A stretch of 64,000 nucleotides of DNA from NCBI GenBank assembly GCA_000004985.1, contig GG738848.1; one strand, 5' to 3'. The notes under the pieces are model-generated. The model was not told the origin of the DNA, did no database searches, and saw only the letters and a program-made list of their open reading frames with translations. This document shows, piece by piece, positions 4,601 to 58,949 of the stretch. This stretch comes from Naegleria gruberi. Its lineage: Eukaryota. The position numbers and the translations under genes are program-made. Position 1 is the stretch's first letter, and each line of letters begins with the position of its first letter.

Positions 4601-4970
4601 TGTATTGTATTCGGAAGTGTATTAAAATGTGTACAAAATTGTGAGGAGCAAAGAAGGTGATATTCTTTCTTTTTTTTGATTTTGAAAATTGAAAAAGGCG
4701 CCAACACTACCTACAACAACTTTTCGAAGAAAATACAAAATACTGTGGAAGTGAGAACTACAATCGGTAGTAAGGAATATAATTTTGTAAACTTTAATAA
4801 GATATTAATATATTAATATTATAAATTTAATGGAACAATATCTAATATAATTTTTTTAAATTGTTATCCTTAAAATATCCACCTTCTCAATATTAAATAT
4901 TTTGTAATCCTTCCAATAATTATCATCATCACATTAAATATTTAATTCTAAATATCCGATAATCTATTTT

Positions 4971-6763
4971 ATGAAATTCAATCAAAAAAAAATGTCCAAA
5001 CAACTAGTCCGAAATGTTCTCCTCCAAACAAGCAAGAGAAGTTTTCATACCAGTGCTCAATTAAAGAAGGATTACATCTTGGGAGTTTATAAAGATGGAA
5101 GTTTTTCTCCATCAGCCTATAATTTATTATCGGAACAATTCTTGTCATCACCATTCTTTACAAAGAAGGATTGGAAGGAAGGAAAGATTTCTCTGATTGA
5201 TTGTGGAATGTTTTTTGATGGAAATAAGTGTAGTATTGCAAAGAATGAAATTACTACTGATGATAGAATAGTTTTTGTTGGTTTGGGAGAAAAGGATGTT
5301 TCTACAAAGAAAATTTCATACAAGAAGAAGTTGTTTAAGGAACAATTTGGTCAACATGAAATTGTTGATATTAATCAACCAAGTGTTAGAGATTTGGCCC
5401 AAAAAGCTGTTCAAGCCTTGTTGTCTGATGTTAAAAAACCAAAGGAAGAAAAATCTGAAAAGTCTGAAGAAGAGGAAAATGATTCTACTCTTGAAGTTTT
5501 CATTGATGATTTGACTAATGGTCAAGAAGCAGTTGAAGGATTAAAACTTGGAAGTTGGAAGTTTATTAAATTGTCAAAGAAAACTGCCAGTAAGACACTC
5601 AATCAATTATCTGAAGGAAAGGTTAATGTTTCTTCTAATATTGAAAAGGAAGTTATTGATAGAGCTATTATTTATTCTGATGCTCAAAACTTTTCAGCAT
5701 ACTTGTCTGAATTACCTGCCAACTATCTCACTCCAAAGTTGTTCTGTAAAACAGTAACTGAAAAATTCCAAACTGAATTGGGTGATTTACTCTCAAAGGA
5801 AAATTCACCATTAACCATCAAGGAACACGACAAGAAATGGTGTGAAGAAATGAAGATGGGATCTTTCTTGGGTGTTTCTCAAGGATCTGCTGAGGAGCCA
5901 AGAGTGTTAGAAATTACATTCATGAATAATCCAAAAGATAACACCAACTTTGATATTATCTATGTCGGTAAGGGTATCACTTTTGATTCTGGTGGTATTT
6001 CAATTAAACCAGCTGCAGGAATGAAAGATATGAAGGGAGACATGTCAGGTGCTGGATCTGTTATGGCAACCATGTTGGCTGTTTGTAAATTGAATCTTCC
6101 TGTCAATATCAAGTGTATTGCCATGTTGTGTGAAGTAAGTACATTACAATATTTCATTCATAATTAACATTTGAAAGAATATGCCATCCTCCACTGCCTA
6201 TAAACCAGGTGATGTCATTACAGCAAGAAATGGTAAAACCATTGAAGTTGATAACACTGACGCTGAAGGTAGATTGGCTCTTGCTGATGGTTTGTGTTAT
6301 GCTTCAGAATTCAAACCAAATCATTTGATTGATGTTGCCACTCTTACAGGTGCTTGTGTTGTTGCTTTGGGAACCAAATTGACTGGTTGTTATACCTCAA
6401 CTAATGACATGTGGAAGAGATTTGAAAAGTCAGGTATTAACACAAAGGATTATGTAAGTATTTCACAATCTCATCAAATTTCTGACAATTATTCCAATCT
6501 AATAGATGTGGAGAATGCCATTCATGCCAACTGAATATGAAAAGCAAAATGAAAGCAATGTTGCCCATGTCAAGAACTCTGGAGGTAGAAATGCTGGCAG
6601 TATCACTGCTTGTTGTTTCTTATCCGAATTTGTTGATTTTGAAAAGGTTCCAAATTATGCCCATCTCGATATTGCTGGAACCAATTCAGATGCTAAGGGA
6701 ATTCACAATGGTCGACCAACAAGAGCTCTTATTGAATATGTAAGACTCTTACAAGAAGAATAA
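4971..6763 (+). CDS. Leucyl aminopeptidase (M17 family), join(4971..6134,6178..6453,6506..6763), with a presequence-like N-terminus
   Basis: GTAAGT donors at 6135 and 6454. Acceptors aaag at 6177 and aatag at 6505. All junctions are phase 0. M17 catalytic motif NTDAEGRL and C-terminal ...[12 protein letters not shown]... are conserved. Confidence 0.85.
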
Positions 6764-23002: not shown

Positions 23003-23075
23003 TGGGGTCTGTGAGGATCGAACTCACGACCTTAGGATTATGAGACCTACGCGCTACCGACTGCGCCAAGACCCC
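23003..23075 (-). tRNA. tRNA-Met: Elongator tRNA-Met (CAU), copy 1 of 3 identical genes
   Basis: 73 nt GGGGTCTTGGCGCAGTCGGTAGCGCGTAGGTCTCATAATCCTAAGGTCGTGAGTTCGATCCTCACAGACCCCA. Perfect acceptor and T stems. U31-U39 as in metazoan elongator Met. Identical to 48226..48298 and 51541..51613. Confidence 0.85.
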
Positions 23076-48225: not shown

Positions 48226-48298
48226 TGGGGTCTGTGAGGATCGAACTCACGACCTTAGGATTATGAGACCTACGCGCTACCGACTGCGCCAAGACCCC
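48226..48298 (-). tRNA. tRNA-Met: Elongator tRNA-Met (CAU), copy 2
   Basis: Identical 73-nt sequence to copies 1 and 3. 5' flank GGTATATAATGTGTC is shared with copy 3. Confidence 0.85.
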
Positions 48299-51540: not shown

Positions 51541-51613
51541 GGGGTCTTGGCGCAGTCGGTAGCGCGTAGGTCTCATAATCCTAAGGTCGTGAGTTCGATC
51601 CTCACAGACCCCA
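51541..51613 (+). tRNA. tRNA-Met: Elongator tRNA-Met (CAU), copy 3
   Basis: Same 73-nt sequence. Followed by T-run ATCTTTTTT (Pol III terminator). Confidence 0.85.
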
Positions 51614-51937
51614 TCTTTTTTGCATCCTTTAATTTCCAACAATGAGTGGACAATAAGTCCATAATTACACAACTTTCAGGATAATCCTTAAAACATCAAC
51701 TTCAATCAGTGAAATATGTTAATAACCCTTAGGTCAACCTTGATGTATTTCTAAAACTGTCACTTCACTTTAGCATAGTACTTTTTAATGTATTTTGCGT
51801 TAAAATGAGGCGCAAGTGCAGATAGGAACACTATCTCAATCCCTCTTTCAACTCTTCTGCAAAATGAAATCTTGGGTTTAGTGATTTTCCAAAAACAAAT
51901 AGACGGATATGTCAGAAATTTGTTATTAATAATGTTA

Positions 51938-52009
51938 GGGACCATGGTCTAGTGGTATGATTTTTGCTTTGGGTGCGAGAGGCCGTGGGTTCGATTCCCA
52001 CTGGTCCCC
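51938..52009 (+). tRNA. tRNA-Pro: tRNA-Pro (UGG)
   Basis: GGGACCATGGTCTAGTGGTATGATTTTTGCTTTGGGTGCGAGAGGCCGTGGGTTCGATTCCCACTGGTCCCC. Anticodon loop TTTGGGT. Close to metazoan tRNA-Pro-UGG. Followed by a T-run. Confidence 0.85.
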
Positions 52010-52102
52010 TTATCTTTTGTTTTAAAAGAAATCATTAAGGTACAGTTTTGCAAACCTCAGTAATATTTTTAGAACATTTCAATTCCAAAATTGTAAAATG
52101 TC

Positions 52103-52174
52103 TAGCAAATCTAGGTTTCGATCCTAGGACCTATGGGTTATGAGCCCATCGCGCTTCCGCTGCGCCAATTTGCT
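52103..52174 (-). tRNA. tRNA-iMet: Initiator tRNA-Met (CAU)
   Basis: RC = AGCAAATTGGCGCAGCGGAAGCGCGATGGGCTCATAACCCATAGGTCCTAGGATCGAAACCTAGATTTGCTA. Initiator hallmarks A1:U72, GGG/CCC anticodon stem and GATCGAAAC T-loop. Confidence 0.85.
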
Positions 52175-52332
52175 TTGCATTTCTTTTCTTAAAGTTTTTA
52201 TTCTAATTGATATTGGCCAAGTGATGAAAGTGAATTGAGGCAACATTAGCTTTTCACTTTGCAAAGATAAAATTTATTCAAGATTGGAAGAGAAATTTGT
52301 GGAATTATTCTATGAAGGAATTACAGTATTAT

Positions 52333-52971
52333 TTATTGTTGTCCTGAAACAGCTTTCCATGAAGGTCTTGATGAAATCTTTTCCCACCAAGCTTTAACAA
52401 GTGGACGATCCAACAATAAATTACCCAATCCAATAGCGAACAACAAGTTTCCATATGGTAAGTGATACAAATCGGCTAAGGTGAATTGATTTCCACCAAT
52501 GAATTCTTGTTTAGCCAACACTTTTTCATAGGCATCCAAATTGAGTGCTAACTTTTCACTCAATTGTTTGACACGAGCTTCATCAGCAGCTCCATATCCC
52601 ATCATTCCCTTAAATAACTTTTCGAAAACTAAACCAGAAGCATTTGAATCAAAGTAAGCAGTTTCAATGGAAGCACCTTGTTCGAATAGACCCAAAGCTT
52701 TGAGCTCAGTTGGAATGAGTTCAGTTCCTTGGCTCTTATGTTTGGCTTCCAAGTAACGACAGATAGCACGAGATTCATAAATCAAGAACCCATCATCTTC
52801 CAAGACTGGAATGACACCAAATGGATGCTTTTCCAAGTAGGATGGTGACTTGTGTTCTCCCTTCATTAAATCAACAGGAACAAGTTCATATTCTAAACCT
52901 TTCTCCTTGATTGTGGTCAAAACACGTTGAACGCAAGTTGATTGAGCAGCACCATAAATTTTGTAGACCAT
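52333..52971 (-). CDS. Glutathione S-transferase
   Basis: ATG at 52971 (MVYKIYGAAQSTCVQR...). N-terminal thioredoxin-like fold with ESRAICRYL. C-terminal helical domain. The upstream 27 codons of the track ORF are not needed. Confidence 0.8.
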   Translation of the reverse strand: MVYKIYGAAQSTCVQRVLTTIKEKGLEYELVPVDLMKGEHKSPSYLEKHPFGVIPVLEDDGFLIYESRAICRYLEAKHKSQGTELIPTELKALGLFEQGASIETAYFDSNASGLVFEKLFKGMMGYGAADEARVKQLSEKLALNLDAYEKVLAKQEFIGGNQFTLADLYHLPYGNLLFAIGLGNLLLDRPLVKAWWEKISSRPSWKAVSGQQ

Positions 52972-53306
52972 TTTGTTATTTGTTATTTGTAATAATACAG
53001 TAAAGTTGTTTTTTTGTGATTGAAAATGCATAATCATTAGTGTGAATGCCATTTATGGTGGATTCTGTATCCGAAACCAAAGCGCTGTCGTGAGCACTAA
53101 TTATTGATCTGTGGAATTTGCGCAAGAAATGAGTGCCATTTCATCCTCTTGGATACTTCAAAATCATGTGAGAGAATGATATTTGTACAATTTTAAATAT
53201 TAAGAATACGAATCAACGGATTGAGTAATAGCATACACCCATTTCCTTAAATTCTAAAACATGTACTGGAATAAATGATTTATCTTACTTATTTCAAAGC
53301 AGTTGA

Positions 53307-53425
53307 TGGCTACGGCCATATCACGATGAATGCACCTCATCCCGTCCGATTTGAGAAGTTAAGCATCGTCGAGCCACATCAGTACTGAGGTTGGAGACAA
53401 CTTGGGAACCTGTGGTGCTGTAGTC
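53307..53425 (+). rRNA. 5S: 5S ribosomal RNA
   Basis: GGCTACGGCCATATCAC...GATGAATGCAC...CCGTCCGATTTGAGAAGTTAAGC...AGTACTGAGGTTGGAGAC...GGTGCTGTAGTC matches the conserved 5S blocks. Followed by TTTT at 53426-53429. Confidence 0.8.
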
Positions 53426-53429
53426 TTTT
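53426..53429 (+). terminator. Pol III T-run terminator after 5S
   Basis: TTTT immediately 3' of the 5S helix I closing strand. Confidence 0.5.
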
Positions 53430-53707
53430 GTCACTTATTTGTTTTATTCATTAGTTTAAAGTTGCCACCTTAATTGAAAGTCTAGTTTGCTTCTCACATT
53501 CTTTCCAATATTCCAAACACCTTCTTTGGATTCAATCATTGACTGAACTGCTCCATCATAAAAATGATTTATTAAGATTCGCTACATGTTCAATATCAAT
53601 AGTTGAACAAGGCATTAAAATTTATTAAAATACCACAAACATTTTGTCATTCTTCACTCCACAACCAACAGAATAAATACTGTGTGCCTTATGCAATTCT
53701 CAAAACC

Positions 53708-53901
53708 ATCTTTCTCGGCCAATTGGCTTTGATCGAGTGTAGTATCTGTTCTTTTCAGTTTAATAGCTGAAAGCAGCTCACGGGTTGCATCTACTATTAA
53801 CTCAATTTTTTGTAGGGATCAGGGTTTGAGCTTAATTGCTCACTTTGATTTGGTTTCAATCAGACATTGCACAAACCGTCAGATTAGGAGCCACCTAACT
53901 C
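53708..53901 (+). ncRNA. U2: U2 spliceosomal snRNA
   Basis: ATCTTTCTCGGCCAATTGGCTTTGATCGAGTGTAGTATCTGTTCTTTTCAGTTTAATAGCTGAAAG matches the U2 5' end, the branch-point interaction region GTGTAGTA and stem IIa. Sm site AATTTTTTG. 3' end approximate. Confidence 0.8.
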
Positions 53902-54290
53902 TTTTAATTAATTGAAAATCATTGTTCAAATACAATCTCAATGAGTTTTTCCGAGCATGTATGATGATAAATTAAACATGATGAGAGAGACTCACAACAG
54001 TCCATCAACCACTTAAGCAAGATGAAGTTTAGGAAGTCCAACACAAGAAATTGATGTTTTGGGTTTGTGTGAAAATAAACTACTATATATTATAGTTGTA
54101 AATTGCCAAGCCGTTTCAGCAATTTTTTAAAAAGGTAACACGTGGTTCTCATCATCATTTTTAATATTCTTGATGAATACTCAATATTATTGGACAATCT
54201 TTTCAGAATAGATAATAGACATGTTGGAGAGGATAATGATATAAAATAAGTAACATGGCATAAAAAGTTGAGTGATAAAGAAGCAAAAGT

Positions 54291-54371
54291 TGCAGAAGGT
54301 GGGATTTGAACCCACGAAGCTTGCGCAGTAGAACTTGAGTCTACCCCCTTTGACCACTCGGGAACCCCTGC
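54291..54371 (-). tRNA. tRNA-Leu: tRNA-Leu (CAA), class II, intron-less
   Basis: RC = GCAGGGGTTCCCGAGTGGTCAAAGGGGGTAGACTCAAGTTCTACTGCGCAAGCTTCGTGGGTTCAAATCCCACCTTCTGCA. Long variable arm. Anticodon loop CTCAAGT. Confidence 0.8.
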
Positions 54372-54955: not shown

Positions 54956-55384
54956 TTATCTGTATGACTTTTGGAAACGAGCTCTAGCCTTACGACCACC
55001 GAACTTCTTTGGTTCTCTTCTTCTTGGATCAGCAACGAGGAGGGATCTATCGAATTCCAACAAAGCTTGCTTGATTTCTCTCTTTTGAGCTTCATCAACA
55101 TACTTTTGATAGTAAGAGACGAGACCCTTGCAGATAGCTTGTCTGATAGCATAGACTTGAGAAACCTTACCACCACCTCTGGTTCTGATTCTGATGTCAA
55201 CACCCTTGAATTTATCCTTACCCAACAAGAGAACAGGTTCGAAAAGCTTGAATCTCAAGATTTCTGGTTGGATGTGTTCGAGTGGAGTACCGTTAACTTT
55301 GATGAGACCTTGACCCTTTCTACATTGGGCAACGGCAATAGCAGTCTTCTTCTTACCGAAGGTTTGAACGAGTTCAGCAGACAT
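54956..55384 (-). CDS. RPS16: 40S ribosomal protein S16 (uS9)
   Basis: 142 aa, single exon, highly conserved (...[29 protein letters not shown]...[16 protein letters not shown]). Confidence 0.9.
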
Positions 55385-55677: not shown

Positions 55678-57405
55678 TTAATAATTAAAATCAAAGGGAG
55701 GAACATCATCAAGATGATGACGAGGATTATCAGTCGAACAACAAATAATAGGAAGGAGAGCTTCAAATAGGCTTTCATCTTCATGCATCCAAGCTGGTAA
55801 TAACATTGAATCATCAACCTTCCTATCTTCCTCTTCTTCATCAAATAGGGAAATATTATGGTGTTTCAAGTAATCTTCAAACACCTGACAATCATCCAAA
55901 TGTTCATAAGGTTCCCAAGTCTCATCTGGATAACCCAACCATTGAATATGATACAAGTAGGATTTTCTAGATTGATCACTTCCCTTGAATACTTTTTCAT
56001 GGTCAACAATAACCTTGATGGTATATTCCTCTGTGGTTGGTTTGGGTTCATACTGTTGATATTCCTCTTCATCACTTTCCTCTTGTTTATCATCACCACA
56101 TTCATTGAAGAGGGCATAATTTCTCTTGATAGGTTTTCTCTTCTCTGTGAGGATTAAACTCTGGTCAAGGCAATCATCACCAAGCTTCTTCTTCATTCTC
56201 TGGCTTTGATAGTAGGGATGGTCAGCTTTGAAAGCATTGAGTGCTTGCCTTTGTCCCATTCCACAATAGACCTTGCTGTGTTTGAAATGTGAACGATGAG
56301 CAAAAAAGATGAAGGAAAATCTCTTCTGTTCATAATCATTGGAAGGCTCTTTGGATGATTGAACTGGGTTGTCTCCATCAGTGGGTTCTTGCTTTGGACA
56401 AGTATTGATAAGAGTTGGAGTATTATCATCAGCTTGAGGATTATTCAATGTTGGAGAAGAATTTTCACAAATTTTCACATCATCAACTTCAGTTTGGGAA
56501 GAATTGGCAAGTGGAAAACTTTGAGGACGAGTTGGAGAAACAGCATGACGATACTTGTTAGCTCTCAGCAAGACAACATCACCTGCTTGAATGTGGACAA
56601 GTGTTTTTGGAGTATGTTCATTCACTCGAATCAATTGAAGGGATCCACCTCCAAATTTTCCCATATAGAACATGGCAGAGATTCCCATATCATTTCTGTC
56701 ACGATGATTTGTCTTTGGACGATTGACTTTATCTGTAGACTTATATGAGCCTTGGAATTTCTCCTTGACTGATTCATTTCTTGTTGGAATCATGTTGAAA
56801 CATACAACTGGAGTTTGACCTCTTTCTGTCAATTTGGATAATTTAGCAAATAGTTTGGGATTTGCCAATTCCAAAATATGTTGAAAGGTATCATGTAAGA
56901 GAGCTTGTATCTGTTTCACTTTGGTATCAACTAGCTCAAATCGAAAGCTATCAGCACATTTGTATCCCATTGGCATATTCATTGTCCACCATCCAGAAAA
57001 GAAACTTCCCTTATCAATATCCTTTTCAGTAGCTAACCATTCACTCATCTCCCTACAAAGTTGAGTGCATTCTTCCAATAGACTTGGAGGCAATACTGAT
57101 TTCAACAAGGCCATTTCAACCATTCCTTCTTTTGTGACGATAATAGTATTTGAGGAGATTTCTTTTGGAATGGTATCATTTACACCATATACTGATAGAA
57201 TGGGTTCATTGGATTGAATATTATTTCCTTTAAGGAATTCCCATTCTTTTATCATTTTGTAAACTCTAGTTTTACCAGATTCATCTATGCTTTTCTCATT
57301 TTCCCAACACACTCTTGTTAAGGCTTGAGCTTTCAAAAATTGTTTCTTTCGTCTTCTGTGTTTGGGTTTCTTCTTGTCGTGCTGAGATACATGCAGTGGA
57401 CCCAT
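55678..57405 (-). CDS. Tet/JBP-family 2OG-Fe(II) dioxygenase with C-terminal chromodomain
   Basis: The core matches the NgTet1-type DSBH as recalled from memory: HRDRNDMGISAMFYMGKFGGGSLQL (HxD), VHIQAGDVVLLRANKYRHAV (distal His), RFSFIFFAHRS (2OG-binding Arg). A low-complexity insert sits between the last two motifs. C-terminal chromodomain EEYTIKVIVDHEKVF...YLYHIQWLGYPDETWEPYEHL. Confidence 0.8.
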   Translation of the reverse strand: MGPLHVSQHDKKKPKHRRRKKQFLKAQALTRVCWENEKSIDESGKTRVYKMIKEWEFLKGNNIQSNEPILSVYGVNDTIPKEISSNTIIVTKEGMVEMALLKSVLPPSLLEECTQLCREMSEWLATEKDIDKGSFFSGWWTMNMPMGYKCADSFRFELVDTKVKQIQALLHDTFQHILELANPKLFAKLSKLTERGQTPVVCFNMIPTRNESVKEKFQGSYKSTDKVNRPKTNHRDRNDMGISAMFYMGKFGGGSLQLIRVNEHTPKTLVHIQAGDVVLLRANKYRHAVSPTRPQSFPLANSSQTEVDDVKICENSSPTLNNPQADDNTPTLINTCPKQEPTDGDNPVQSSKEPSNDYEQKRFSFIFFAHRSHFKHSKVYCGMGQRQALNAFKADHPYYQSQRMKKKLGDDCLDQSLILTEKRKPIKRNYALFNECGDDKQEESDEEEYQQYEPKPTTEEYTIKVIVDHEKVFKGSDQSRKSYLYHIQWLGYPDETWEPYEHLDDCQVFEDYLKHHNISLFDEEEEDRKVDDSMLLPAWMHEDESLFEALLPIICCSTDNPRHHLDDVPPFDFNY

Positions 57406-57619: not shown

Positions 57620-58693
57620 TTATTGAACAGGAGTGGCAATATTTGTTGGATCCAATAAAGGAGCAGCACCAGGTATGGAGAAGAGTGGCTTGGCATAACT
57701 AAATGTAAGGAAGAAGAATAATGGGATTTGGAGAATTGCCACAATGAAAATGAAATAATTTCTTTTGGCTGTATTAGTATCCAACCTTAATCTCATACTA
57801 TTGTCTGAGGAGTGAACACTAGATCTTCTCAAAGATTTAATCATGAAAGTAACCATCATAATTCCAAGGATTAATAAAGAAGGATAATAGGCATAATTTC
57901 CAAATAATAATGACAATACTAGAGTGATGATAATGCCAATATACTTGTAGCCAGAGAATGCAGCAACATCAAGTACACCCAAGCTGCTTTGAACACCCAA
58001 GGCATAAAATCCAAATTTCACAATGGCAATTTCCAAAAGTGATGTTATAAATCCTTTCATTCCGATACTGTACAACAATTCAGGTTTAAATTCCTTGTGT
58101 GCTCCCATAATAAAACAAACCAATAATACATAGGTAATATATCCCATCAATGGAATATACAAATCAGGGTCACTTAAATGACGTTCTTGAGTTTGATTTT
58201 GGTTATTATTATTGTATTCATAGCTTGTATCAAACTTTTTAAATGGGAATAAAACAAGGAGTAATTTTCTGCTCACATAACTATTAGTAACATTAAAATA
58301 ACATTTAAGTCCATCAAACCATTGCCAATATCTACTAGTCACTTCATTAGTCTTTTCTCCTACACTTCCATATAATTGATTCACTCCCATGTTGATCATA
58401 AAATCAGCTGTTGGATTTTGAAAAAGATTAGCACCAGCTGATGTATTATTACCGAAAAATCCTCCAAATAAACCACCAAAACCTGGAGCATTCATTCCTT
58501 GATTATTCATCGAACCATCCATTGCTCCCGAAGAATTATCCATCATTTGTGGGGATGAAGCTCCTCCTATACTTCTCGAACTAAATCCAGAGTCAAAGAA
58601 ATCAAGAGATTGTTGTGGTGTTGGTGAGGTTGGATCGAAAGAGCTTGGAAAGCTTCCAACATCATCGAAAAGGGCACTTCTACGATCGTTCAT
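57620..58693 (-). CDS. YIF1: YIF1 (Yip1-interacting factor) family Golgi membrane protein
   Basis: G/N/Q-rich N-terminus. WFDGLKCYFNVTNSYVSRKLLLVLFPF matches the YIF1 signature. Five TM segments. Confidence 0.7.
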   Translation of the reverse strand: MNDRRSALFDDVGSFPSSFDPTSPTPQQSLDFFDSGFSSRSIGGASSPQMMDNSSGAMDGSMNNQGMNAPGFGGLFGGFFGNNTSAGANLFQNPTADFMINMGVNQLYGSVGEKTNEVTSRYWQWFDGLKCYFNVTNSYVSRKLLLVLFPFKKFDTSYEYNNNNQNQTQERHLSDPDLYIPLMGYITYVLLVCFIMGAHKEFKPELLYSIGMKGFITSLLEIAIVKFGFYALGVQSSLGVLDVAAFSGYKYIGIIITLVLSLLFGNYAYYPSLLILGIMMVTFMIKSLRRSSVHSSDNSMRLRLDTNTAKRNYFIFIVAILQIPLFFFLTFSYAKPLFSIPGAAPLLDPTNIATPVQ

Positions 58694-58875: not shown

Positions 58876-58949
58876 GCAGCGATAGATCAGTTGGTTAGAT
58901 CGTAAGCCTAACACGCTTAAGGTCGCGGGTTCAAGCCCCGCTCGCTGTA
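58876..58949 (+). tRNA. tRNA-Val: tRNA-Val (AAC)
   Basis: GCAGCGATAGATCAGTTGGTTAGATCGTAAGCCTAACACGCTTAAGGTCGCGGGTTCAAGCCCCGCTCGCTGTA. Anticodon loop CTAACAC. Confidence 0.85.

What the first reader, a model, noticed from the sequence alone, without database searches (positions are those of the whole stretch)
55678..57405. Tet/JBP 5-methylcytosine-dioxygenase-like protein fused to a chromodomain
The catalytic core aligns motif-by-motif with Naegleria NgTet1 as I recall it (HxD, distal His, 2OG Arg) and contains a low-complexity insert. The C-terminus carries a canonical chromodomain (methyl-lysine reader). It lies directly beside RPS16 and the Pol III cluster. This implies reader-coupled oxidation of 5mC or thymine in this organism and supports the taxonomic guess.
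Basis: partly seen in the sequence, partly recalled or inferred. Interest (0 to 1): 0.55.

Follow-up and report, generated by a model that had tools for sequence, protein, structure and literature searches.

The report
Naegleria Tet-like dioxygenase fused to chromodomain
This gene of the amoeba Naegleria gruberi encodes a relative of the DNA 5-methylcytosine oxidase NgTet1 joined to a histone methyl-lysine reader module, so the enzyme is probably steered to silent chromatin; it belongs to a known enzyme family and has not itself been studied.

Summary
Window 55678..57405 (-) is one uninterrupted 575-aa ORF, identical to Naegleria gruberi XP_002682154.1 / NAEGRDRAFT_46005 / D2V161. Databases call it a "predicted protein" and annotate only a Chromo domain.

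- **Active site.** NgTet1 residues R224, H229, D231, D234, H279, R289, F295 and H297 are all kept, as R229, H234, D236, D239, H287, R362, F368 and H370. Only N147 differs.
- **Pfam.** Tet_JBP does not hit. It also misses the crystallised NgTet1, so that proposed refutation test is invalid.
- **Insert.** A 64-aa disordered insert lies between the distal His and the 2OG Arg.
- **Chromodomain.** Residues 461-514 pass Pfam's threshold. They keep the aromatic cage (Y461, W489, Y492) and model confidently.

The neighbouring genes are unrelated housekeeping genes.

Most likely function (inferred, untested): the chromodomain tethers the oxidase to H3K9me3/H3K27me3 heterochromatin, which is where N. 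gruberi's sparse 5mC lies.

I rate it a member of a known family, probably already catalogued among the eight NgTet paralogues. Interest is moderate.

The parts
55678..57405 (-). Complete single-exon CDS (575 codons plus stop), N. gruberi NAEGRDRAFT_46005 / XP_002682154.1
   Evidence: ORF. Exact database match.
57286..57405 (-). N-terminal basic, disordered region (aa 1-40, KKKPKHRRRKK). Possibly a nuclear-localisation signal (inference).
   Evidence: Sequence. Low pLDDT.
56281..57198 (-). Tet-like Fe(II)/2OG dioxygenase domain (aa ~70-375, double-stranded beta-helix)
56977..56982 (-). M142-N143, aligned to NgTet1 N147-S148. The Asn that contacts the base O2 is not at the aligned position but one residue later.
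   Evidence: Alignments. Role of N147 from PMC4678852.
56800..56802 (-). C202, equivalent to NgTet1 A212 in the hydrophobic pocket that accommodates 5hmC for further oxidation
   Evidence: Alignment. The A212V phenotype is described in PMC4678852.
56734..56781 (-). Protein-specific insert of about 16 aa (aa 209-224) before the HxD strand
   Evidence: Absent from the four relatives. pLDDT below 50.
56719..56721 (-). R229, equivalent to NgTet1 R224 (stacks on the flipped base and ion-pairs with 2OG)
   Evidence: Invariant column. Role from PMC4678852.
56698..56706 (-). H234-R-D236, the HxD Fe(II) ligands (NgTet1 H229/D231)
56689..56691 (-). D239, equivalent to NgTet1 D234, which binds the cytosine N4 amino group and sets the preference for cytosine
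   Evidence: Invariant column. Role from PMC4678852.
56545..56547 (-). H287, the distal Fe(II) ligand (NgTet1 H279)
56332..56523 (-). 64-aa low-complexity, predicted disordered insert (aa 295-358) between the distal-His strand and the 2OG-Arg strand
   Evidence: Gap in all relatives. pLDDT 29-46. Composition.
56296..56322 (-). R362 (2OG Arg = NgTet1 R289), I366 (= V293), F368 (= F295, base stacking) and H370 (= H297, contacts N3)
   Evidence: Roles of V293, F295 and H297 from PMC4678852. Role of R289 from my memory of Hashimoto et al. 2014.
56170..56253 (-). Helical extension after the catalytic domain (aa 385-412), shared with paralogues P0031 and P0004 but not NgTet1
   Evidence: Alignment. 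Helices in the models.
56026..56169 (-). Acidic, disordered linker (aa 413-460)
   Evidence: pLDDT below 50.
55864..56025 (-). Chromodomain (aa 461-514) with aromatic cage Y461, W489, Y492
   Evidence: Pfam PF00385, 28.8 and 34.6 bits against a cut-off of 25.1. PDB hits to CDYL, Clr4, MPP8 and HP1. Cage columns conserved across 27 chromodomains. AF2 pLDDT 92-97 for most of the domain, with three strands plus a helix.
55681..55863 (-). Acidic C-terminal tail (aa 515-575), no recognisable domain
   Evidence: No Pfam hit. Low pLDDT.

Best explanation
The gene encodes a nuclear, catalytically competent Tet/JBP-family 5-methylpyrimidine dioxygenase. It is a paralogue of NgTet1 whose catalytic domain is joined to an HP1/CDY-type chromodomain by an acidic linker.

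Proposed mechanism:
1. The chromodomain's aromatic cage binds a methylated histone lysine, most plausibly H3K9me3 and/or H3K27me3.
2. This concentrates the enzyme on N. gruberi's single, transposon-associated heterochromatin state, which is also where the genome's sparse 5mC lies.
3. The catalytic domain flips out a 5-methylpyrimidine. This is most likely 5mC, because the Asp that reads the cytosine N4 is kept.
4. It oxidises the methyl group using Fe(II), 2-oxoglutarate and O2.

The outcome would be locally targeted turnover or marking of heterochromatic DNA methylation.

Shown here: the domain identities, conservation of every metal, 2OG and base-stacking residue, and the intact cage. Inferred: enzyme activity, substrate, which histone mark is read, and the in-vivo targeting.
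For: **Identity.** Exact match to an N. gruberi protein.

**Active site.** R229, H234, D236, D239, H287, R362, F368 and H370 are invariant with NgTet1 R224, H229, D231, D234, H279, R289, F295 and H297. PMC4678852 gives the roles of R224, F295, N147, H297 and D234, including 'D234-N4 defines the binding pocket specificity' for cytosine.

**Chromodomain.** It scores above Pfam's gathering cut-off. The closest solved relatives are CDYL, Clr4, MPP8 and HP1, which I recall as H3K9me readers. The cage residues are conserved. The fold is modelled confidently.

**Biological context.** 5mC-rich regions of N. gruberi coincide with H3K9me3 and H3K27me3, and their intermediate methylation suggests turnover (PMC12344493). 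The H3K9me3/H3K27me3 state is found only on transposons (bioRxiv 10.1101/2025.03.17.643675).
Against: - No activity, binding or expression data exist for this protein.
- Pfam Tet_JBP does not match, although the NgTet1 control fails in the same way.
- NgTet1 N147, the O2 contact, aligns with Met142.
- Two protein-specific inserts, of 16 and 64 aa, interrupt the fold and could affect activity.
- No 5hmC was detected in N. gruberi by Nanopore sequencing.
- No orthologue carrying the fusion was found in 1.84 billion representative proteins, so conservation cannot support function.
- The catalytic-domain models rest on very shallow alignments (mean pLDDT 51 and 62).
Confidence: 0.6

Rival explanations
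1. It is a heterochromatin-targeted thymine hydroxylase. Like JBP, it would make 5hmU rather than oxidising 5mC.
For: NgTet1 has minor activity on thymine, and H297 can read N3 in either protonation state (PMC4678852). No 5hmC was detectable in N. gruberi, and the authors themselves suggest thymine or RNA as the in-vivo substrate. The O2-contacting Asn147 is not at the aligned position.
Against: D239, equivalent to D234, is retained. In NgTet1 this residue defines the preference for cytosine, and changing it to Asn is what raises thymine activity. The protein's closest characterised relative is a 5mC oxidase.
Confidence: 0.2
2. It is a catalytically weak or inactive paralogue that acts mainly as a chromatin-binding scaffold, or as a regulator of other NgTet enzymes.
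For: Two inserts interrupt the fold, one of them (64 aa) between the last two catalytic strands. The gene appears lineage-specific, with no orthologue found. Its nearest paralogue has a chromo-like region that has already lost the cage, which shows that domains in this clade do decay.
Against: Every Fe(II), 2OG and base-stacking residue is intact. The long ORF is uninterrupted. Mammalian TETs tolerate a much larger insert within the same fold (PMC6130217).
Confidence: 0.12
3. The chromodomain does not read histone methyl-lysine. It might instead bind RNA or DNA, a non-histone methylated protein, or mediate dimerisation, so the targeting logic would be different.
For: From general knowledge, not tested here: some chromodomains, such as those of MOF/MSL3 and Mi-2, bind nucleic acids. 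The specificity of this one cannot be read from its sequence.
Against: All three cage aromatics are present, along with the WEP motif. The best structural relatives are CDYL, Clr4, MPP8 and HP1, which I recall as H3K9me readers. It is not a chromo-shadow domain, since the match is to Pfam Chromo.
Confidence: 0.08

Closest known systems
[quoted passage not shown]
   Different: NgTet1 is a 321-aa stand-alone catalytic domain with no reader module. The window protein adds a 16-aa and a 64-aa insert, a helical extension after the catalytic domain, an acidic linker, a chromodomain and an acidic tail. N147 becomes M142 (with N143 adjacent), A212 becomes C202 and V293 becomes I366.
N. gruberi paralogue NAEGRDRAFT_68183 / XP_002676528.1 (583 aa)
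   Same: It is the closest relative found anywhere, E=2e-26 with 33-35% identity in the catalytic domain. It shares the helical extension after the catalytic domain. Its C-terminal segment aligns weakly and without gaps to the chromodomain (pairwise E=7e-4).
   Different: It has a long N-terminal extension instead. It lacks both inserts. Its C-terminal segment gives no Pfam Chromo hit, and the cage positions read gap/N, F and S instead of Y, W and Y.
Mammalian TET1/TET3 (CXXC domain plus Tet catalytic domain) and TET2
   Different: Their targeting module reads DNA (unmethylated CpG) rather than a histone mark. They have a Cys-rich domain that is absent here. From memory, their insert lies between HxD and the distal His rather than after it. 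They have Asn at the position of D234/D239.
Plant chromomethylases (CMT3 / ZMET2; PDB 4FSX family)
   Same: A chromodomain is fused to a DNA-5mC enzyme, coupling H3K9 methylation to DNA methylation state. The ZMET2 chromodomain appears among the PDB hits (E=2e-3).
   Different: CMT is the writer (a C5-methyltransferase) with the chromodomain embedded in the catalytic domain. Here the chromodomain is attached to the oxidase, which acts as 'eraser' or modifier.
Trypanosomatid JBP1/JBP2
   Same: From general knowledge, not tested here: they are Tet/JBP-family hydroxylases fused to a targeting module. JBP1 carries a base-J DNA-binding domain and JBP2 a SWI2/SNF2 domain.
   Different: Their substrate is thymine and their accessory domains are different. 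No sequence-level hit was obtained here.
CcTet (Coprinopsis cinerea; PDB 7VPN, 8JKK)
   Different: It is fungal and associated with transposons, has dual 5mC/6mA activity, and has no chromodomain.

Membership tests
Tet/JBP family of Fe(II)/2OG nucleic-acid dioxygenases | Significant sequence similarity to a biochemically validated member | tested here: met
   phmmer against PDB gives NgTet1 at E=4.8e-8. Pairwise BLASTP gives E=4e-16 and 28% identity over 220 aa.
Tet/JBP family of Fe(II)/2OG nucleic-acid dioxygenases | HxD...H facial triad for Fe(II) | tested here: met
   H234, D236 and H287 align to NgTet1 H229, D231 and H279 and are invariant across five sequences.
Tet/JBP family of Fe(II)/2OG nucleic-acid dioxygenases | 2OG-binding Arg on the last core strand (Rx5-6 F/Y-x-H motif) | tested here: met
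   R362 in KRFSFIFFAHR aligns to R289 in WRIGLVYFAHK.
Tet/JBP family of Fe(II)/2OG nucleic-acid dioxygenases | Residues that cage the flipped pyrimidine (NgTet1 R224, F295, H297, D234, N147) | tested here: inconclusive
   Four of the five are conserved: R229, F368, H370 and D239. N147 aligns with M142, with N143 next to it. The roles are taken from PMC4678852.
Tet/JBP family of Fe(II)/2OG nucleic-acid dioxygenases | Fold closest to solved Tet/JBP members rather than to other 2OG oxygenases | tested here: met
Tet/JBP family of Fe(II)/2OG nucleic-acid dioxygenases | Match to Pfam Tet_JBP (PF12851) | tested here: not met
   There is no hit at E<=1. The control shows this test is uninformative: NgTet1 (sequence verified) and two paralogues also give no PF12851 hit at E<=10. 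The model does not cover the Naegleria clade.
Tet/JBP family of Fe(II)/2OG nucleic-acid dioxygenases | Oxidation of 5mC (or T) in DNA | not testable with these tools
   This needs recombinant enzyme and LC-MS.
Chromodomain (Pfam PF00385), HP1/CDY-type methyl-lysine reader | Profile match above the curated threshold | tested here: met
   28.8 bits on the whole protein and 34.6 bits on the isolated segment, against a cut-off of 25.1.
Chromodomain (Pfam PF00385), HP1/CDY-type methyl-lysine reader | Three-residue aromatic cage | tested here: met
   Y461, W489 and Y492 occupy columns that read Y/F/W, W and Y/W/F in 26-27 of 27 aligned chromodomains. They align to the corresponding residues of CDYL and Clr4. 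Identifying these columns as the cage rests on my knowledge of HP1 (Y24, W45, Y48).
Chromodomain (Pfam PF00385), HP1/CDY-type methyl-lysine reader | Three-stranded antiparallel sheet packed against a C-terminal helix | tested here: met
   The AF2 model has strands 463-473, 481-489 and 495-499 and a helix at 507-515, with pLDDT 92-97 for most of the domain.
Chromodomain (Pfam PF00385), HP1/CDY-type methyl-lysine reader | Methylation-dependent binding of a histone tail, and which mark | not testable with these tools
   This needs peptide binding assays. H3K9me3/H3K27me3 is proposed only from the nearest relatives and N. gruberi chromatin maps.

The most novel reading that the evidence does not exclude
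This would be a 'reader-coupled eraser', the mirror image of plant chromomethylases. In this reading, a Tet oxidase is recruited directly by H3K9me3/H3K27me3 through its own chromodomain to transposon and viral heterochromatin. There it continuously oxidises 5mC (or T). That would explain three things about N. gruberi: why its methylation is intermediate, why it is context-independent, and why 5hmC is undetectable. If the paralogue's C-terminal segment really is a decayed chromodomain, the fusion predates the duplication of the two long NgTet paralogues, and direct coupling of histone methylation to DNA demethylation would be an old feature of this discoban lineage.
Probability: 0.3. Interest if true: 0.6.

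Novelty: new member of a known kind. Interest (0 to 1): 0.4.

Why it matters
N. gruberi is the deepest-branching eukaryote in which DNMT1, Tet-like enzymes, 5mC, H3K9me3 and H3K27me3 have all been documented. Its 5mC coincides with H3K9me3/H3K27me3 heterochromatin and looks dynamic, yet no 5hmC has been found.

A Tet paralogue that carries its own methyl-lysine reader gives a concrete candidate for how oxidation is aimed at that chromatin. It can be tested with one recombinant protein, a peptide array and one ChIP experiment.

It would also be a natural counterpart to engineered reader-TET fusions used in epigenome editing, and to plant chromomethylases.

The enzyme family, the organism's paralogue expansion and the general tendency of Tet/JBP enzymes to fuse to chromatin domains are all already established. 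The gain would therefore be incremental unless the targeting is demonstrated.

Tried and rejected
- **Pfam Tet_JBP as a membership test.** There was no hit. I rejected it as a test after the NgTet1 control also failed.
- **Word-indexed homologue searches.** The single-sequence search returned only the query itself, and the profile search returned only P0023. These were uninformative because the relatives are about 30% identical.
- **Exhaustive phmmer.** It found only three catalytic relatives, and none of them has a recognised chromodomain.
- **Metagenome scan.** Scanning with the clade profile found nothing.
- **Chromodomain near P0004.** I looked for a chromodomain exon near the environmental relative P0004 and found none.
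- **Profile search of PDB.** It did not reach TET2, CcTet or JBP. Only fold comparison did.
- **AFDB fold search.** The library was unavailable, so I could not enumerate the N. gruberi paralogues or look for other Tet-chromo fusions.
- **Literature.** Hashimoto 2014 (PMC4364404), Pais 2015 and the PMC ids I recalled for Iyer 2009 and 2013 are not held. No held paper mentions any accession of this protein or its paralogue, or NgTet2-5 or NgTet8 (NgTet6 and NgTet7 were not searched). I could therefore not verify my recollections. One is that this accession is one of the eight NgTet/'mYOX' paralogues. The other is that Aravind's group noted a Naegleria Tet-chromo fusion.
- **Gene-fusion or assembly artefact.** Considered and rejected. 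The ORF is continuous with no stop or frame change, and the deposited gene model is identical.
- **Transposon origin of the chromodomain (chromovirus integrase).** Considered and rejected. The flanking genes are uS9, YIF1 and a mitochondrial carrier, and no integrase is present.
- **Functional meaning of the neighbouring genes.** Considered and rejected. This is a compact eukaryotic genome and the genes are unrelated.
Full report
**1. What is there**

Window 55678..57405 (minus strand) is a single ATG-to-stop ORF of 575 codons. Its product is identical, residue for residue, to Naegleria gruberi XP_002682154.1 / EFC49410.1 / NAEGRDRAFT_46005 / UniProt D2V161. The sources call it only 'predicted protein', and its only precomputed Pfam domain is Chromo. 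The window is therefore N. gruberi nuclear DNA, with about 33% GC, and the deposited gene model equals the ORF.

The flanking genes on the same strand are unrelated housekeeping genes:
- ribosomal protein uS9/RPS16 at 54956..55384, 293 bp downstream
- YIF1 at 57620..58693, 214 bp upstream
- a mitochondrial-carrier protein

A cluster of small-RNA genes lies at 51.5-54.4 kb. It holds two tRNA-Met genes, tRNA-Pro, tRNA-Leu, 5S rRNA and U2 snRNA. Nothing suggests these neighbours are functionally linked to the gene. No second Tet-like gene lies in the window.

**2. The catalytic domain**

*Sequence evidence*
- In that alignment HRD lies on NgTet1 HKD, and YRHAV lies on YKHVV.
- When the insert is cut out, KRFSFIFFAHR aligns with NgTet1 WRIGLVYFAHK.
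- Pairwise BLASTP gives 28% identity over 220 residues.

*Conserved residues.* I aligned the protein with NgTet1, an NgTet1-like environmental protein and the two closest relatives. The following columns are invariant (numbering checked).

| This protein | NgTet1 |
|---|---|
| R229 | R224 |
| H234 | H229 |
| D236 | D231 |
| D239 | D234 |
| H287 | H279 |
| R362 | R289 |
| F368 | F295 |
| H370 | H297 |

The NgTet1-5hmC structure paper states the roles of several of these (PMC4678852):
- F295 and R224 sandwich the flipped base.
- N147, H297 and D234 read O2, N3 and N4 respectively.
- The D234-N4 contact 'defines the binding pocket specificity' for cytosine.
- D234N shifts activity toward thymine.

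Four of these five cage residues are kept. N147 aligns with Met142, with Asn143 next to it.

The hydrophobic pocket that lets 5hmC rebind for further oxidation is A212/V293/F295 in NgTet1, and A212V stalls the enzyme at 5hmC. Here the pocket is C202/I366/F368, which is slightly bulkier. This is a lead, not a result.

*Fold evidence.* Two AlphaFold2 models were built from shallow alignments, with mean pLDDT of 51 and 62 and much of the core at about 75-93.
- Foldseek gives the same order, with NgTet1 at E=1e-9 and 3.5e-12.

*The Pfam test.* PF12851 (Tet_JBP) does not match at E<=1. Only generic 2OG-FeII_Oxy models appear, and these are below threshold. I ran the control:
- NgTet1, together with two paralogues, also gives no PF12851 hit at E<=10.

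The Pfam model therefore does not cover this clade, and the test cannot refute membership.

*Protein-specific features.* There are two inserts, both absent from all relatives and both modelled as disordered:
- about 16 residues (aa 209-224) before the HxD strand
- a 64-residue S/P/N/D/T-rich insert (aa 295-358) between the distal-His strand and the Arg strand

Mammalian TETs also carry a large low-complexity insert inside the fold (PMC6130217). From my memory of the TET2 structure, that insert lies between HxD and the distal His. If so, the resemblance here is analogous rather than homologous.

A helical extension (aa 385-412) follows the core. It is shared with the two closest relatives but not with NgTet1.

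**3. The chromodomain**

- Pfam Chromo matches aa 461-514 at 28.8 bits, or 34.6 bits on the isolated segment, against a curated cut-off of 25.1.
- The best solved relatives are the chromodomains of CDYL, Clr4, MPP8, CDY1 and HP1. The chromodomain of the maize chromomethylase ZMET2 also appears.
- In an alignment with 26 chromodomains recovered by the exhaustive search, Y461, W489 and Y492 sit in columns that are aromatic in 26-27 of 27 sequences. The WEP motif is also present. By my knowledge of HP1 (Y24, W45, Y48), these three columns are the methyl-lysine cage.
- With those sequences added to the alignment, AlphaFold2 models most of the domain at pLDDT 92-97, as three strands plus a helix.
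- A 48-residue acidic linker precedes the domain and a 61-residue acidic tail follows it. It is therefore near the C-terminus but not at it.

**4. Relatives**

An exhaustive phmmer search of 1.84 billion representative proteins found only three relatives of the catalytic domain:
- the N. gruberi paralogue NAEGRDRAFT_68183 (583 aa, E=2e-26)
- an environmental 319-aa protein, P0004 (E=3e-17), on a contig that also carries a DYW-deaminase gene
- an NgTet1-like environmental protein (E=5e-4)

The other 26 hits are chromodomain proteins. None of the hits combines a Tet domain with a recognisable chromodomain, and no chromodomain lies near P0004.

The 583-aa paralogue has a C-terminal segment that aligns without gaps to the chromodomain (pairwise E=7e-4). 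However, it gives no Pfam Chromo hit and lacks the cage aromatics. One reading is that the fusion predates the duplication and only this copy kept a working reader. This is weakly supported.

**5. How it most likely works**

*Shown:* an intact Tet-type active site and an intact HP1/CDY-type cage sit on one polypeptide, and there is a basic N-terminus that could serve nuclear import.

*Inferred:* the chromodomain docks on methylated H3 tails and raises the local concentration of the oxidase on that chromatin.

Recent N. gruberi data make the target plausible:
- The genome has a single heterochromatin state, H3K9me3 plus H3K27me3, found only on transposons (bioRxiv 10.1101/2025.03.17.643675).
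- Its 447 hypermethylated regions coincide with those marks.
- Methylation there is intermediate and independent of sequence context, which the authors read as ongoing gain and loss possibly linked to the Tet-like enzymes (PMC12344493).
- No 5hmC was detected by Nanopore sequencing (PMC12344493).

A heterochromatin-tethered Tet would fit these observations. Retention of D239 favours 5mC over T as the substrate. I put about 0.95 on the domain identities and about 0.5-0.6 on the targeting mechanism.

*Rivals:* a thymine hydroxylase (0.2), a weak or inactive scaffold (0.12), and a chromodomain with a non-histone ligand (0.08).

**6. Comparison with what is known, and novelty**

The protein works like, and by every informative test belongs to, the Tet/JBP family. 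Its reader is an ordinary chromodomain.

The logic of a targeting module plus a DNA-modifying enzyme is familiar from TET1/3 (CXXC), JBP1/2 and plant chromomethylases (a chromodomain plus the 5mC writer). Aravind and colleagues note that Tet/JBP proteins show multiple independent fusions to chromatin domains (PMC4738411).

From memory, which I could not verify because the papers are not held:
- Hashimoto et al. 2014 list eight NgTet paralogues of up to 583 aa.
- I believe this accession is one of them ('mYOX2' in the NEB patent).
- I believe a Naegleria Tet-chromo fusion was noted by Iyer et al.

No held paper mentions the accession. To my knowledge the protein has never been characterised.

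I therefore rate it as a member of a known kind, probably already catalogued, with moderate interest. The value lies in the testable link to the new N. gruberi methylome and chromatin maps.

Noticed in passing
window 51541-54371: A dense cluster of small-RNA genes: tRNA-Met (51541-51613 +), tRNA-Pro (51938-52009 +), tRNA-Met (52103-52174 -), 5S rRNA (53308-53426 +, 105 bits), U2 snRNA (53706-53899 +, 115 bits) and tRNA-Leu (54291-54371 -).
   Followed up: partly
window 23003-23075, 48226-48298, 51541-51613, 52103-52174: There are four tRNA-Met(CAT) genes in 64 kb. Three have identical Rfam scores (69.2 bits), so they are probably identical dispersed copies. I did not determine whether they are initiator or elongator tRNAs.
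   Followed up: no
window 58876-58949: A tRNA-Val(AAC) gene sits in the short gap between the YIF1 and mitochondrial-carrier genes, just upstream of the Tet-chromo/YIF1 gene pair.
   Followed up: no
Pfam PF12851 versus NgTet1 (no window coordinates): The Pfam Tet_JBP model fails to detect the crystallised, biochemically validated NgTet1 and its Naegleria paralogues even at E<=10. Domain-based surveys of Tet/JBP distribution will therefore miss this clade. This probably explains why D2V161 is annotated only with Chromo.
   Followed up: yes
P0031 (N. gruberi NAEGRDRAFT_68183) aa ~520-575: The closest paralogue ends in a segment that aligns without gaps to the chromodomain (pairwise E=7e-4). It has lost the aromatic cage and is invisible to Pfam. 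It may be a decayed chromodomain.
   Followed up: partly
window 56800-56802 and 56308-56310 (C202, I366): The pocket that in NgTet1 (A212/V293/F295) permits oxidation beyond 5hmC is bulkier here (C202/I366/F368). NgTet1 A212V stalls at 5hmC, so this paralogue might stop at the hydroxymethyl stage.
   Followed up: no
L001 (ENA ERZ25068833 contig) 137-1096 and 4789-5034: An environmental 319-aa Tet-like relative (P0004) lies on a contig that also has a DYW-deaminase gene. This suggests an uncultured relative of unknown identity that has Tet-like genes but no chromodomain fusion at this locus.
   Followed up: partly
P0002 (JGI metagenome protein, 544 aa): The best chromodomain hit is a protein with about six tandem chromodomains after an unrelated N-terminal domain. 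I did not look at it further.
   Followed up: no
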